Shown here: positions 56,311 through 61,624 of the stretch, piece after piece
Layout of the letters: every line of letters begins with the position of its first letter
Numbering within the stretch: position 1 is the first letter of the stretch
NCBI GenBank assembly: GCA_964016885.1
Contig: OZ024740.1
Span: forward strand, 417,322,001-417,386,000
Source: Eledone cirrhosa
Lineage: Eukaryota
Direction: 5' to 3'
Length of the DNA stretch: 64,000 nt
Position numbers and translations under genes: made by a program
The notes under the pieces: model-generated
Told to the model about the DNA's origin: nothing
Databases searched by the model: none
Seen by the model: only the letters and a program-made list of their open reading frames with translations

Positions 56311-56466
56311 TTTTGAGTTTCATTTATGGTGGTGACATTCAGCTTTACTTCCATTAGCATCATTAGTAAGAAAGTAAACACACAAATACATTTTAGCTAG
56401 GCGTAATAACTAGTCCAGAAATATATATATATATATATATATATATATATATATATATATATATTA

Positions 56467-56589
56467 AAATAACAGATTAAAGTTTAAGCAAAGAATCGCT
56501 GCTTTCACCCTTAACGGGATCTTCTGAAACAGAAGATCCCGTTAAGGGTGAAAGCAGCGATTCTTTGCTTAAACTTTAATCTGTTATTT
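56467..56589. repeat. Perfect 60-bp-arm hairpin with 3-nt loop and a degenerate hammerhead at the apex
   Basis: Arms 56467-56526 and 56530-56589; CAGAAGA-t-ccc-gttaa-ggg-t-GAAA-gcagcgat-TC. Confidence 0.85.
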
Positions 56590-57059
56590 AATAAATATTT
56601 GCTCTACGGTTCTTATATATTTGATATATATTTATCCTTATCGAGCCCTCTTTGGATTTTAGTCTTCAAATTTATTATTATTACTATATATATATATATA
56701 TAAGACCGTTATTCCTCCAGACAGTCTACTTACCTTCAGTGCTATACACTAAACTGAATGTTAACCTGTACCCAAGACTTCTGTCAAACGAACCTTACTC
56801 ATCCACTAAATTCCTCAAATCACACGGAGATCACCCATTCCCCCAGATACGGCTTGTGTAACCGGACCTTATCAGTCATCCAATGGGGAAGACGGACGTT
56901 ATCAAGCTGTAGCTATCGTATTACGTATTTTCTATATAATAAAGCCAAAGCTATTATATATATCTATATCTACACGTGTATTATTGACAGATCTGAGAAT
57001 GAGTACTCAATACCATAGTAGAGTTTAAACATTTATTATATTATTATGGCTATATAATG

Positions 57060-57112
57060 AGTGTTGTTACTCTGGGGTTTCGCCTGCACACTCAGTCTCA
57101 TCAGACAAAACT
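57060..57112 (-). ncRNA. Type I hammerhead motif, inverted copy
   Basis: Exact reverse complement of 57151-57203. Confidence 0.7.
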
Positions 57113-57150
57113 AATATATATATATATATATATATATATATATATATATT

Positions 57151-57203
57151 AGTTTTGTCTGATGAGACTGAGTGTGCAGGCGAAACCCCAGAGTAACAAC
57201 ACT
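57151..57203 (+). ncRNA. Type I hammerhead motif
   Basis: agttttgt-CTGATGA(57159-57165)-g a ctg agtgtg cag g c-GAAA(57182-57185)-c cccaga g-TA-acaacact. Confidence 0.7.
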
Positions 57204-57231
57204 CATTATATAGCCATAATAATATAATAAA

Positions 57232-57510
57232 TGTATATATATATATATGTATATATATATATATATATATATATATATATATATATATGTATATATATAT
57301 ATATATATATATATATATATATATATATATATATGTATATATATATGTATATATATATATATATATATATATGTATGTATATATATATATATATATATAT
57401 ATATATATATATGTATATATATATATATATATATATATGTATGTATATATATATATATATATATATATGTATATATATATATATATATATATATATATAT
57501 ATATATATAT
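57232..57510. repeat. (TA)n microsatellite with TG interruptions
   Basis: Seen directly; another tract at 57704-57872. Confidence 0.95.
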
Positions 57511-57549
57511 CAGTGTCCGCGCATTGCCTGGAGACTTAACTGAGAATAG

Positions 57550-57631
57550 ACTCCCTGATGACGCAATGAATTCTCGACAGTTGGATTACGTAACTGTCTT
57601 TATCCCATTGCAGAAACTAATTAGTTGGAGT
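57550..57631 (+). ncRNA. Minimal type I hammerhead motif
   Basis: actcc-CTGATGA(57555-57561)-c-gcaatg..gacagtt/aactgtc..cattgc-a-GAAA-ctaattag (palindrome)-TT-ggagt. Confidence 0.75.
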
Positions 57632-57874
57632 GAAAATTTAAGTAGGAAAAAAAAAATTTTTTTTAAATTTTTTTAAAAAAATATTTTCTTATTTTACGTC
57701 CTTTATATATATATATGTATGTATATATATATATATATATATATATATATATATATATATATGTATGTATATATATATATATATATATATATATATATAT
57801 ATATATATATAGAGAGAGAGAGAGAGAGAGAGAGAGAGAGAGAGAGAGAGAGAGAGACATATATATATATATGT

Positions 57875-60480
57875 GTAGAATTTGTATTTAATTTGTTGGA
57901 ATTCCGACAAACATAAATGCTTATAACTGATTTAGAGCACTCAACAGATTAGTGGAGTAAATATTCCAAAATATTCATAGATATTAAATAATAACTCGGT
58001 GCAATTAACGGATCTTGTGGGGCTATTTATTAATAATACACTACATAGAAAAATACCAGAGATGACCGGTGGTTTATATCGTGATGATATGCTGCTCTTA
58101 ATTAAAAATCATAGTAATTCTGAAATTAATAGAAAAAGAAAATCAATAATACAATTTTTCAAATGCTACAATCTTAAGTTAGAAATAGAGAATAACTATA
58201 AAATTGTTAACTTTTTAGATGTAACATTAAACCTTACCACAGGGCTCTACTATCCATTCCATAAAATTAATGAGAATTTAAACTATGTAAGCTTCAACTC
58301 CAATCATCCTAGATCTATTAAGAACACTATTGTAAATTTTATACAACAACGTATTTCTCTAATCTCTGCTAATAAAAACATTTTAGACGATAAGGCAGAA
58401 TATTATAATGAAACTTTAAACAGAGCAGGCTATATAAATAAGATTAAATACATCGACAACAGTAATAAACCAAATAACCCTATTATTAATTATAATTACA
58501 ATAGAAAACCTTACTTAAACTCTAAAACTAACAGAAGAAATAGGAACTAGAAATATAATTTGGTATTCTCCTCCTTTCTCATTAAGCGTTAAAACACCTT
58601 TAGCTAAACTATTCTTTAAAGCTCTAGATAAATGTTTTCCCTAAAACCAATAGATACCACTCAATCTTTAACAGACATACAATAAAACTATCTTACTCTA
58701 CTACTATGAACTTAGCTCAAAATATAAATAGAATCAATAATAGAAATTTAAACCATAACCAAAATAGCAATAATATCTCTAGCAATATCCAACATAATAA
58801 TACCGTTCCCAATAACATCAACTCCGCTAAGTGTAATTGTAGAATTAAATCAAACCGTCCTTTAAAAAATAAGTGCTTAGATAAGGAAGTGGTCTATAAA
58901 TGCACAGTCAAAACCAATGACAATATATTTAACTATGTAGGCTCTACTTCTACAGACTTTAAAACTCGTTTCAATAATCACAAATGCTCGTTTAACAATA
59001 TTGGTAAAAAATCTTCAACTTCTCTATCAAACTTGATATGGAACTTAAAATCCCAAAATACGGACTATTCTTTAACGTGGGAAATAATTTCAATAGCACC
59101 TGCATACCAAAACACAGCTTTATCTAGATTTTGCAAATTATGTGTTGAGGAAATTTTCTTCATACTTAAATGTAAGAACTCTATTAATATACGTATAAAT
59201 TTGTTTAGTTCTTGTAAACATCGCCTAAATTCTACGTTTAGAACTATATATAAATTATAATTACACTCATAATATTTCTACTTATTTCCATATATTGTTT
59301 GATATAACTTCACTTCTTATAATTTCACTTATCAAAATCTCTTAAATTATATACATATATGATCCTAAACTTTTAAATTTTAATTTTTAATTTTAACTTA
59401 AATTTAAATATTTTTAAGGTTTTTTAATTCTTTATCCTTTACTTCTTAAATCCTTAGCTTTTACTTCTTAAATGTTCCATTTTTCATATTTTTATTTTTT
59501 ACTTCTAAAATATTTCATATATTTTAAAATTTACTTATTTTTTCAAAAAATTCTTTTTTTTTTTTAAATTATATATTTTTTTTAAAATTACTTATTTAAA
59601 AAAAAAATCTACTTTTTTTTTAAAATCTTTTATATAAAAAAAATTTTTTAATGGTTTTTAAAATTTTTATGAAATTTTCAAAAAACTTTTTTAAGGTTTT
59701 TCAAATACTATTTTTTAAATATTCTTTAAATATTTTTTTTAGATTTTCTGAAAAATTTTTTTTTTTTAATTTTCCAGAATATTTAATATTAATATTATTA
59801 ATAATATTTTAATATTTTTTAATAATTTATTTTTTAATAATTCATTTGATTTTTAACCAATAACTACTTTAGGCTAAATAGATCTTTCAACATTTATATC
59901 TTTGACAAAATGGGTTATTTTTCTATCTAATCTTTTATATATATTTATTTTTCTATATATACCCTTTTCTATATATATCTATTTTCTCTATCTACTTATA
60001 ATGGTAAATATATTATATTAGAAAAGAATTCTAACAACAATTTAATAGTAACCATACGTATCATTACTAGATATAAACTTTAAACTTATTTACGTTACAT
60101 GACTTCTATTCATCCCCTTGTAAATTTCTGCTCTATCCATCTCAAAATAATAATTTTTTCTCTCTCTCTTTCTCCAGCGTCATTTAAGTAAACGATTGTT
60201 TTTTTAATTATTTACACATTCATTTGCATATTCACATATAACTATGAATAACCCTTAATATGTTTCCACTATCCAGTGAATTTCCGACCGATAAGGTTTG
60301 ATTATCATGGATATGTCTTTACATATAAAACATACTTTGTATTTTATCTGATGAAAGCGCACCAAGGTTCCTTGGTTGCCCTTGAAATATATATAATAAA
60401 ATAAATATGGTTTTATAAATATAGTTTCCATTTATTTAATATCTTTCTCTCTCCCTCTTCCCTACTTTTCTCTCTTCCTT
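57875..60480 (+). mobile_element. 5'-truncated Penelope-like element (Naiad-type), frameshifted RT plus GIY-YIG, long AT-rich 3' region
   Basis: GLYRDD, NFLDVTL, SNHP, RNIIWYSPPFS, IFNRHTIKLSYS, CNC..PL..KC linker, VVYKC..YVGST..FKTRFNNH, CKLC..E; two frameshifts near 58545 and 58642; hammerhead in the 3' region. Confidence 0.88.
60324..60417 (+). ncRNA. Minimal type I hammerhead motif in the 3' terminal region of the PLE
   Basis: tattttat-CTGATGA(60348-60354)-aag cgc accaagg ttc cttggt tgcc ctt-GAAA(60384-60387)-tatata-TA-ataaaata; stem I extends as tataaaacata/tatggttttata. Confidence 0.8.
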
Positions 60481-60530
60481 TTCTACTCTATCTTCCCCAA
60501 CAACCCCACTTAAGGGTATTTACATTGTAC

Positions 60531-60665
60531 ATTTACCATTCTGCTCTGAGGAAACAGTGGTCACAGCATTGGATATTCGAGTTCTGCAAGTACTTGTGAA
60601 TTTGCACGTAGCATAACTAGGCTGCAGTACCACCGTGGAAACACTTGTAAGCACACGGAATAAAT
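60531..60665 (+). ncRNA. Type I hammerhead motif with long stem II
   Basis: atttacc..tgct-CTGAGGA(60546-60552)-a-acagtggt..accaccgt-g-GAAA(60638-60641)-cacttg-TA-agca..ggaataaat. Confidence 0.65.
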
Positions 60666-60950
60666 TACCTTTTTATGATGTCTACCTGTTATTATTCATT
60701 CTTTATATACACTCCGGGATACTGAAGGATCAGGAACTAAGTTTCTTGAACAATTCTTCCATAACCCGTAGAGTAACTTCTTACCGTACGTCAACCATAT
60801 CCAGTGTAGTAATTAACCATTACTACATCTCGGATAATCCTATACCTAATATATATATATATATATATAACGATACATTAACGGAGCCATAGACTCTCGC
60901 CGTTCCCTGTAAATAATGTGCTCAAAGGAGAGGAAATCCTGAGCTCTTTA

Positions 60951-61574
60951 AAATACAATATGTTGAAAAGGTAACACACTAGAGATATACAGTGCGCTAT
61001 CAATAAAACAGGGAAAAACCACCAGTGTATGTAATCTAAAACCTATGAAAGGCAGAGTATAGACACGATAATTAAAAATATAAATTAAAGCGTAAATAAA
61101 TACCTCTATAACTATATAACACACGTACAAATCCAAAGTGATCTGTTTCGCCAGTAAGTTGTTGACAGAAATGAAATATGGTTTTGGGCTGCTCTTTCTA
61201 GCAGCTCGTCCCTCAGAGGCCACTGGTTTACTGCCCTTAAACACGCTGTGACTTCTCTCTCCCACGTGTAGCTGGACGGTCACTTTAAACATTCTCTTAG
61301 TGTTGTCTGAAATGTATAGCCTTACACACGCTGATGAACCTGGGTTATTTCATTTCTGTCAACAACTTACTGGCGAAACATCACTTTGGATTTGTACGTG
61401 TGTTATATAGTTATAGAGGTATTTATTTACGCTTTAATTTATATTTTTAATTATCGTGTCTATACTCTGCCTTTCATAGGTTATAGATTCCATACACTGG
61501 TGGTTTTTCCCCGTTTTATTGAAAGCGCACAGTATCTCTCTCTAGTGTGTTACCTTTTCAACATATTGTATTTA
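60951..61574. repeat. About 228-bp inverted repeat with a 167-bp spacer
   Basis: 60951-61178 is the reverse complement of 61346-61574 with few differences. Confidence 0.9.
61324..61403 (+). ncRNA. Type I hammerhead motif
   Basis: acacacg-CTGATGA(61331-61337)-stem II cc tgggtt/aactta ct gg-GAAA(61375-61378)-ca(ga)tc..gatttg-TA-cgtgtgt; 7-bp perfect stem I. Confidence 0.75.
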
Positions 61575-61624
61575 TATTTATATATATATATTTTCTTCCT
61601 CTCAACCACATCATCTTCCGTATT

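What the first reader, a model, noticed from the sequence alone, without database searches (positions are those of the whole stretch)
56400..61600. Chain of mostly (TA)n-delimited modules, each carrying its own distinct hammerhead ribozyme
Seen: within about 5 kb there are six complete CUGANGA..GAAA..UH cores (57060 minus, 57151, 57550, 60324, 60531, 61324) and one degenerate core (56530). Stems I-III are complementary in each, yet the stem sequences differ between modules, giving at least five sequence types. Most modules are short non-coding blocks bounded by (TA)n. Known: Penelope-like elements (PLEs) carry minimal type I hammerheads in their terminal repeats (Cervera and de la Pena 2014). 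Inferred: several PLE families, or small non-autonomous retrozyme-like derivatives, have repeatedly inserted into one (TA)n tract and built a local array of self-cleaving RNA cassettes. Read-through transcripts would be cut into defined pieces.
Basis: partly seen in the sequence, partly recalled or inferred. Interest (0 to 1): 0.75.

Follow-up and report, generated by a model that had tools for sequence, protein, structure and literature searches.

The report
Pile-up of Penelope and retrozyme ends
This stretch is six separate mobile-element insertions stacked in TA repeats, each with a predicted self-cutting RNA motif; such piles are not rare in this genome, but the two protein-free repeats among them end at two fixed sites just as the Penelope-type jumping genes do, which likely means those genes' enzyme copies them.

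Summary
The motifs are real: seven type I hammerhead folds lie in 56400-61600 (strict scan 4 against 0.01 in shuffles), some tens of bases from the stated positions. They belong to six independent insertions, not one cassette array. A, D and E are 5'-truncated ends of ORF-bearing Penelope-like elements; E meets all tested Hydra-clade features. C and F are pieces of 557- and 543-nt head-to-tail units without Penelope coding sequence (non-LTR retrozymes). B is an old family of unknown parent. The 'degenerate' core is its family's fixed form: CAGAAGA in 17,572 exact copies against 214 with another base at position 4. All six families end at (TA)n at two fixed points downstream of the cleavage site, and 69 of 83 two-armed insertions pair one short with one long end, the retrozymes included. 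The density is the upper tail of the background: 39 motifs in 400 kb of sampled DNA, with one of 40 segments as dense. The idea that transcripts are cut into pieces is unsupported: two modules fold into long hairpins, one is damaged, and cleavage is untested. This scan noted all of these features before on other DNA of this genome.

The parts
56422..56463 (.). (TA)n tract, left edge of the pile
56464..56529 (-). Module A, inverted arm with the short 3' end; CAGAAGA core starts at 56526, with 4 bp of stem I
56530..56684 (+). Module A, direct arm with the long 3' end; truncated at the CAGAAGA core (56530), predicted cleavage position 56570; end of an ORF-bearing PLE family
   Evidence: L085, L089; L205 has RT and EN matches upstream in the same orientation
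56703..56955 (.). Module G, piece of an older (TA)n-bounded repeat (nearest copies 73-79% identical); no hammerhead in this piece
56974..57113 (-). Module B, arm with the long 3' end; core at 57104
57114..57149 (.). (AT)18 between the two B arms
57150..57233 (+). Module B, arm with the short 3' end; core 57159, predicted cleavage after 57195; old family, no ORF link found
57234..57509 (.). (TA)n with TG interruptions
57510..57705 (+). Module C, 196-nt piece of a 557-558 nt non-coding tandem unit (retrozyme); core 57555, predicted cleavage after 57626; palindromic helix III; short 3' end
57706..57871 (.). (TA)n / (GA)n tract
57875..57976 (-). Module D, inverted arm holding only the tail up to the long 3' end
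   Evidence: same sequence follows the hammerhead in L164, L167, L169, L170, L176 and others
57981..59260 (+). Module D, broken 3' part of a PLE ORF: RT (YRDD), linker, GIY-YIG-like domain (YVGST)
   Evidence: 45% and 41% identity to the 736-aa family E ORF
59261..60446 (+). Module D, 3' untranslated region and hammerhead (core 60348, predicted cleavage after 60395); short 3' end
60440..60849 (+). Module E, 5'-truncated pseudo-LTR of a young Hydra-clade PLE; core 60546, predicted cleavage after 60649; long 3' end; joined to D through a shared 7-nt stretch with no (TA)n
60850..60869 (.). (TA)10
60870..61178 (-). Module F, inverted arm with the long 3' end; holds stem III but is truncated before the CUGAUGA box
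61179..61573 (+). Module F, direct arm of a 543-nt tandem unit (retrozyme); core 61331, predicted cleavage after 61396; 2-nt deletion in stem III in this copy; short 3' end
61579..61590 (.). (TA)6, right edge of the pile

Best explanation
The 5.2 kb is a stack of six separate hammerhead-bearing insertions from dispersed repeat families (three ends of protein-coding Penelope-like elements, two pieces of protein-free tandem-unit retrozymes, one old family of unknown parent), all likely placed by Penelope-type reverse transcriptase/endonucleases that cut in (TA)n. Shown: family identity, ORF linkage for A, D and E, tandem units for C and F, two fixed 3' ends per family at (TA)n, short-with-long pairing of opposite arms, and random 5' truncation. 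Inferred: the enzyme breaks both strands of a (TA)n tract; each DNA end primes reverse transcription internally on the element RNA, one at the near start site and the other at the far one; the two cDNAs stop at random and are joined head to head. Each event leaves (TA)n on both sides, so later elements can land beside earlier ones. For C and F the start sites lie 75-260 nt past the cleavage site and some arms are longer than one unit, so the template was likely a circle or an uncleaved multimer, not a cleaved linear monomer. The ribozymes here are passengers, and most of these copies are predicted to cleave poorly.
For: Every module has many dispersed copies with different neighbours. ORF upstream in the same orientation: E in 16 of 29 other loci, D in 15 of 29, A in L089 and L205. 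In 24 of 30 loci holding the ORF 5' end, module E runs on without (TA)n into the ORF start, so both 'ends' are internal positions of the transcript, as reported for the anole element (PMC11167929, parts 1-2 read). The 736-aa ORF carries DKT, CxCx5C and CxxC/CxH, and RWK lies just upstream of it; by features it groups with RT/GIY-YIG clusters at 0.95-0.99. C: 557-558 nt spacing, longest stop-free frame 55 codons, head-to-tail spacing in 31 of 59 partly overlapping loci; F: 543 nt, 10 of 89. 318 of 338 distinct (TA)n-abutting 3' ends fall in two bins per family; of 83 outward-facing arm pairs 69 are short+long, 4 are same-type and 10 have an unclassified end; for C and F 27 of 36, with 2 same-type. 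Compensatory changes in stem II of C (47 cells against 15.2 shuffled, 0/500) and D (26 against 6.4, 0/500). Background: 39 motifs in 40 x 10 kb, none in three shuffles, 32 of 39 within 300 nt of (TA)5 against 35% of random positions.
Against: No cleavage or expression data. B shows no covariation (433/500 shuffles reach the observed count) and no ORF link in 28 loci. Pfam did not recognise any of the ORF pieces, so the RT/GIY-YIG call rests on motifs, the alignment and the Atlas. C and F share no clear DNA similarity with the PLEs tested, so the mobilising family is not identified. Other-family hammerheads are not enriched beside young insertions (0.79-1.09 per 10 kb against 0.98 in sampled DNA), which speaks against strong nesting feedback; the count only follows (TA)n tract number (Spearman 0.47, p=0.002). 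The short and long bins were set after seeing the histogram, and the query choice fixes which end the central hit has. F has one 104-codon Met-started frame.
Confidence: 0.88

Rival explanations
1. The stack is a functional array: a read-through transcript is cut at several hammerheads into defined RNAs that the host uses.
For: Five intact cores (B right arm, C, D, E, F) lie on the + strand within 4.2 kb; C and D families show covariation.
Against: Modules differ in age (nearest other copy about 79% for G, 84% B, 93% D, 97% F, 98% C, 99% A and E) and occur elsewhere without each other. One of 40 sampled segments is as dense. A and B are sequestered in hairpins, and F and B are damaged in this copy.
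Confidence: 0.04
2. C and F are not retrotransposed: they are satellite-like units, perhaps old pseudo-LTRs, amplified and turned round by DNA-level recombination at (TA)n.
For: Local tandem amplification is proposed for retrozymes (bioRxiv 10.64898/2026.07.22.740005, part 3 read). The two B arms here are 99% identical while eight other B palindromes are 78-89%, which could reflect DNA-level copying.
Against: Dispersed copies with two fixed ends and short+long pairing in 27 of 36 pairs, the same pattern as the ORF-bearing families; compensatory changes across C subfamilies. Unequal crossover gives no reason for fixed, unequal ends.
Confidence: 0.06
3. The palindromes are assembly artefacts (fold-back reads at (TA)n).
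For: The B arms are near-identical around a (TA)n centre.
Against: Arms end at different, family-fixed points. In contigs of public runs the B piece has about twice the word depth of the neighbouring unique G piece (11.8 against 5.8 and 15.4 against 8.4 in 2 of 3 runs) and one contig carries the right-arm junction; these runs may be the assembly's own sample and depth is only a rough guide.
Confidence: 0.02

Closest known systems
Hydra clade of endonuclease-bearing Penelope-like elements (Craig et al. 2021, PMC8557442; passages read)
   Same: C-terminal GIY-YIG, RWK, DKT, CxCx5C linker, CxxC and CxH around the conserved E and N, hammerhead in the pseudo-LTR, (TA)n targets, 5' truncation, inverted 5' copy, tail at one end only.
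   Different: Tails here are about 55-145 nt, against the 30-40 bp given for PLEs in that paper. Family A has a fixed A at core position 4. Families D and A have 3' untranslated regions of about 1 kb.
Metazoan non-LTR retrozymes (Cervera and de la Pena 2020, PMC7229834, passages read; Li, Clavereau and Pollet 2026, bioRxiv 10.64898/2026.07.22.740005, parts 1-3 of 5 read)
   Same: Head-to-tail units with one type I hammerhead each, GC under 45% (36% and 40%), no PLE coding sequence, monomers to multimers, living beside autonomous PLEs.
   Different: Units are 543-558 nt (170-400 nt in the 2020 paper, within the 51-972 bp range of the preprint). They insert in (TA)n as two back-to-back arms with two fixed ends. 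Those papers argue for PLE mobilisation from co-occurrence and pseudo-LTR similarity; I saw no insertion-end evidence in the parts read. Circular RNA is not shown here.
PAc Poseidon element of the green anole (Frangieh et al. 2024, PMC11167929; parts 1-2 of 4 read)
   Same: Two internal start sites for reverse transcription downstream of the hammerhead, defining the tail; AT-rich cleavage of both strands; ribozyme cleavage not needed for insertion in vitro.
   Different: In vitro the two strands showed no difference in start site, whereas here opposite arms nearly always carry different ends. In family E the two sites lie upstream of the ORF start, not inside the ORF.
Minimal and variant type I hammerheads of PLEs (Cervera and de la Pena 2014, PMC4209133, parts 1-2 read); natural core variants (Perreault et al. 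2011, PMC3088659, passages read)
   Same: Short stem I, unpaired base before stem II, small palindromic helix III (C, D), family-specific stems, head-to-head pairs 100-700 bp apart.
   Different: U4C is the position-4 variant named in the Perreault passages; the term U4A does not occur in that text, and two literature searches found no natural CAGAAGA hammerhead core. C and E have long stem II extensions; family F has a stable 7-bp helix III.

Membership tests
Type I hammerhead ribozyme | CUGANGA, GAAA and UH in the order C-G-S, closed by stems I-III | tested here: met
   B, C, D, E, F. For A the core is CAGAAGA; see next row.
Type I hammerhead ribozyme | U at core position 4 (module A) | tested here: not met
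   17,572 exact copies with A against 214 with C, G or T
Type I hammerhead ribozyme | Compensatory changes in the stems among family members | tested here: met
   C: 6 pairs, 47 cells, 0/500; D: 4 pairs, 26 cells, 0/500. Cells count sequences, not events.
Type I hammerhead ribozyme | Compensatory changes in families B, A, E, F | tested here: inconclusive
   B none above shuffles; A and E copies nearly invariant; F looked at by eye only
Type I hammerhead ribozyme | Site-specific self-cleavage | not testable with these tools
   needs a cleavage assay
Hydra-clade PLE (module E family) | Single ORF, RT then C-terminal GIY-YIG | tested here: met
   736-aa open frame with YRDD and YIGST; Atlas clusters with RVT_1 and GIY-YIG at 0.95-0.97; Pfam blank
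Hydra-clade PLE (module E family) | RWK, DKT, CxCx5C linker, CxxC and CxH flanking E and N | tested here: met
   RVRWKAF; KADKTS, CNCHLPERC, CRLC..E..N..CNH; features from PMC8557442 section 11
Hydra-clade PLE (module E family) | Pseudo-LTR with hammerhead before and after the ORF; (TA)n target | tested here: met
   (24 of 30)
Hydra-clade PLE (modules D and A) | Linker CxCx5C and similarity to the E protein | tested here: inconclusive
   D is 41-45% identical to E, but its third linker Cys reads Arg in this broken copy and its N-terminus is missing; A linker read by eye as CxCx5C in L051; RWK and DKT not checked for D or A
Hydra-clade PLE | Placement in the RT phylogeny with reference Hydra sequences | not tested
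Non-LTR retrozyme (modules C, F) | Head-to-tail units with a type I hammerhead in each | tested here: met
   C: four cores at 557/558/557 nt in L035; F: dimers at 543 nt
Non-LTR retrozyme (modules C, F) | No protein coding, low GC | tested here: met
   C longest stop-free frame 55 codons; F 115 codons (104 from Met) with no tblastn match to three PLE proteins; GC 36% and 40%
Non-LTR retrozyme (modules C, F) | Expressed as linear and circular monomer RNA | not testable with these tools
   needs RNA from this organism
Non-LTR retrozyme (module B) | Tandem units | tested here: inconclusive
   no tandem and no ORF in 28 loci; shared upstream sequence only about 60 nt
Type-SGC permuted hammerhead (Eckert et al. 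2023, PMC10085705, passages read) | Blocks in the order S-G-C | not tested
   all motifs found here fit the type I order; I ran no scan for permuted forms

The most novel reading that the evidence does not exclude
Hydra-clade Penelope enzymes mobilise the 543- and 557-nt retrozymes by twin internal priming: both ends of a break in (TA)n start on the same circular RNA, each at its own fixed site past the ribozyme cut, and run round the circle to give back-to-back multimers. The success of family A with a fixed U4A core would then show that PLE spread does not need a fast ribozyme.
Probability: 0.55. Interest if true: 0.62.

Novelty: new variant of a known kind. Interest (0 to 1): 0.4.

Why it matters
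The pile itself is ordinary for this genome. Its value is as a side-by-side sample of coding and non-coding hammerhead elements with the same insertion signature. Which enzyme moves animal retrozymes is still a proposal in the papers read, and how PLEs make their inverted repeats and one-sided tail is open. The fixed start sites name exact RNA templates and positions for an in vitro test with a young, nearly intact Hydra ORF. Family A offers a natural test of whether a PLE needs ribozyme activity.

Tried and rejected
Rfam: no hammerhead match; the miRNA-family matches below threshold come from the palindromes. Pfam: no RT or GIY-YIG hit for the ORF pieces or for the frame at 61620-61958. Solved structures: only chance matches at E about 1. 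Sequencing runs: no RNA holder listed, three contig sets of one sample, so nothing on expression; laying them on 60200-61640 showed only that these are high-copy families. Minimum-free-energy folds of single motifs mostly do not give the full hammerhead fold, as expected for short helix III. The idea that young insertions attract other families was tested and not supported. An ORF or tandem parent for B and a hammerhead for G were not found. I first took the ORFs for Neptune-type from memory; the motifs fit Hydra instead. A search of earlier notes by module A sequence and near this place was blank. Supplements of the papers were not opened; those of PMC8557442 (hammerhead and Hydra lists) and PMC3088659 (core variants) may bear on the novelty of U4A and of these families, and the preprint's supplements are closed.
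Full report
Observation. The region lies in a 3.0-Gb assembly (G000, contig C1). A strict type I descriptor finds four motifs in 56400-61600 (cores 57555, 60348, 60546, 61331) against a mean of 0.01 in 300 dinucleotide shuffles. 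A relaxed descriptor, written after I had seen the motifs, adds 57104 (-), 57159 (+) and 56526 (-), and finds one further motif in the rest of the window, at 1374. Rfam does not see them. Self-comparison shows three inverted pairs: 56457-56598, 57026-57237 and 60951-61178 against 61346-61573. So seven motifs belong to six families, which I call A to F; a seventh repeat, G (56703-56955), has no hammerhead in the piece present.

Each module is a dispersed family. I searched the genome with each and read 20-30 of the best loci. Family A: of 429 candidates 40 were scored, all 98-100% identical. Copies end at one fixed point before (TA)n, and inverted arms end about 90 nt earlier. RT and endonuclease matches lie upstream in the same orientation in L089 and L205. 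Family D: the ORF piece at 57981-59260 lies upstream of the hammerhead in 15 of 29 other loci and in the inverted arm in 3 more; 57875-57976 is the family's own tail, reversed. Modules 57875-60446 are therefore one insertion. Family E: 98-99% identical copies, 5' ends ranging from 80 to over 1500 nt upstream, ORF upstream in 16 of 29 other loci. L203 holds 736 open codons with YRDD, DKT, a CxCx5C linker and the GIY-YIG-like domain. In 24 of 30 loci that hold the ORF 5' end, module E precedes it and runs on for 176 nt without (TA)n into a frame with RWK. These are the features listed for the Hydra clade (PMC8557442, passages). Pfam is blank for these proteins; the Atlas places the ORF with RT/GIY-YIG clusters.

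Retrozymes. Module C is 196 nt of a 557-558 nt unit that occurs head to tail (four cores in L035); 31 of 59 partly overlapping loci show such spacing. Its longest stop-free frame is 55 codons. A pattern for its ribozyme has 7,569 matches. Across 28 chosen copies of several subfamilies, stem II and its distal hairpin show changes on both sides in 6 pairs and 47 cells, against 15.2 in shuffles (0/500). Module F is part of a 543-nt unit, with 76 exact matches to a 33-mer and 497 to a looser pattern; 10 of 89 partly overlapping loci are tandem. Neither unit matches the PLE proteins or, beyond short AT-rich stretches, the PLE DNA tested. Family B is old (best other full-length copy 84%), with no ORF or tandem in 28 loci and no covariation in 20 intact-core copies of 27. 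Family D shows covariation in 35 of 46 intact-core copies aligned (26 cells against 6.4, 0/500).

Shared insertion signature. In all fetched loci, 318 of 338 distinct 3' ends that abut (TA)n fall at one of two positions per family, about 25/115 (A), 35/90 (B), 75/190 (C), 50/145 (D), 55/200 (E) and 172/260 nt (F) after the predicted cleavage site (bins set after seeing the first histogram). Of 83 outward-facing arm pairs, 69 join a short and a long end, 4 join like ends and 10 have an unclassified end; for the retrozymes C and F the figures are 27, 2 and 7 of 36. In the window, A, B, D and F are two-armed with one end of each kind, and C and E are single arms. Two internal start sites that define an optional tail were shown in vitro for an anole PLE (PMC11167929), and a tail at one end only is described for PLEs (PMC8557442). 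The match in C and F is genomic evidence, by inference, that a PLE enzyme copies them. Because their ends are not the cleavage site and arms can exceed one unit, the template was likely circular or multimeric. Searches returned no paper that shows this end pattern for retrozymes; the 2020 paper and the 2026 preprint propose PLE mobilisation on other grounds.

The odd core. The 'degenerate' motif at 56530 is the family form: 17,572 exact matches carry CAGAAGA, and 214 carry C, G or T at position 4, spread over all three bases in the 100 rows listed. A second, unrelated motif with the same core and 8- and 7-bp stems turned up in sampled DNA (L239). U4C is noted as a slowed but viable natural variant (PMC3088659); I found no U4A. 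Activity is untested.

Is the cluster special? In 40 evenly chosen 10-kb stretches the relaxed descriptor finds 39 motifs and none in three shuffles. 25 stretches have none, one has nine, and that one has seven in 5.2 kb, as here. 32 of 39 lie within 300 nt of (TA)5, against 35% of random positions, and counts follow tract number (rho 0.47). Flanks of young insertions are not richer in other families than sampled DNA (0.79-1.09 against 0.98 per 10 kb), so strong nesting feedback is not shown. The locus is the upper tail of a patchy background.

Function at this locus. Module A folds into one hairpin of -103.8 kcal/mol and B has the same layout. B has a private stem II mismatch and F a 2-nt stem III deletion. 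C, D and E have short helix III and one copy each, where low monomer activity is reported for such motifs (PMC4209133). Processing of a read-through transcript is thus not supported, and expression could not be examined. Contigs of public runs hold the B piece at about twice the depth of the adjacent unique sequence and carry the right-arm junction, which argues against an assembly artefact, though they may come from the same sample.

Verdict. The families are new members of known kinds, with two departures from what I read: retrozymes with a PLE two-site, two-armed signature, and a fixed U4A core. Earlier notes of this scan report both on other DNA of this genome; I retested them here on families A-F.

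Noticed in passing
window 57026-57237: The two B arms are 99% identical, though the nearest other copy is 84% and eight other B palindromes have arms 78-89% alike. Either a decayed copy was recently moved in trans or the arms were homogenised; the (AT)18 centre is unusual for these insertions.
   Followed up: partly
window 57533-57585 (module C): GAGAA just upstream of stem I (49 of 57 distinct copies) is complementary to TTCTC in the stem II internal loop (51 of 57): a possible pseudoknot in place of the loop I-loop II contact. Near-invariant, so no covariation support.
   Followed up: partly
window 61300-61370 (module F): Loop II has two candidate partners upstream of stem I (a 14-nt near-complement, and a 5-nt match right before stem I); not tested formally.
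   Followed up: no
window 62957-64000 and L201:1-531: Another PLE with CxCx5C linker on the minus strand, two-armed, running past the window end.
   Followed up: partly
window 1365-1440: A separate hammerhead of another family, also seen twice in L216.
   Followed up: no
L239:4365-4460: Unrelated hammerhead fold with CAGAAGA core, 8-bp stem I and 7-bp stem III.
   Followed up: no
window 56703-56955: Module G, an old (TA)n-bounded family with one fixed end; could be the tail arm of a further PLE.
   Followed up: partly
window 62020-62340: Repeat with four weaker copies in the window; looks like a tRNA-derived SINE on the minus strand (recalled resemblance, not tested).
   Followed up: no
window 61620-61960: Frame resembling the C-terminus of a LINE RT (recalled resemblance; Pfam blank).
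   Followed up: partly
window 49474-56090: 58-bp satellite, 114 copies, 96% matches, 330 nt left of the pile.
   Followed up: no
window 62595-62660: Decayed fragment resembling family B stem III and stem I without the CUGAUGA box (seen).
   Followed up: no
L208:722-3284 and L201:3812-6757: A different RT/GIY-YIG element (YVDD, GETAR), not of the Hydra type.
   Followed up: no
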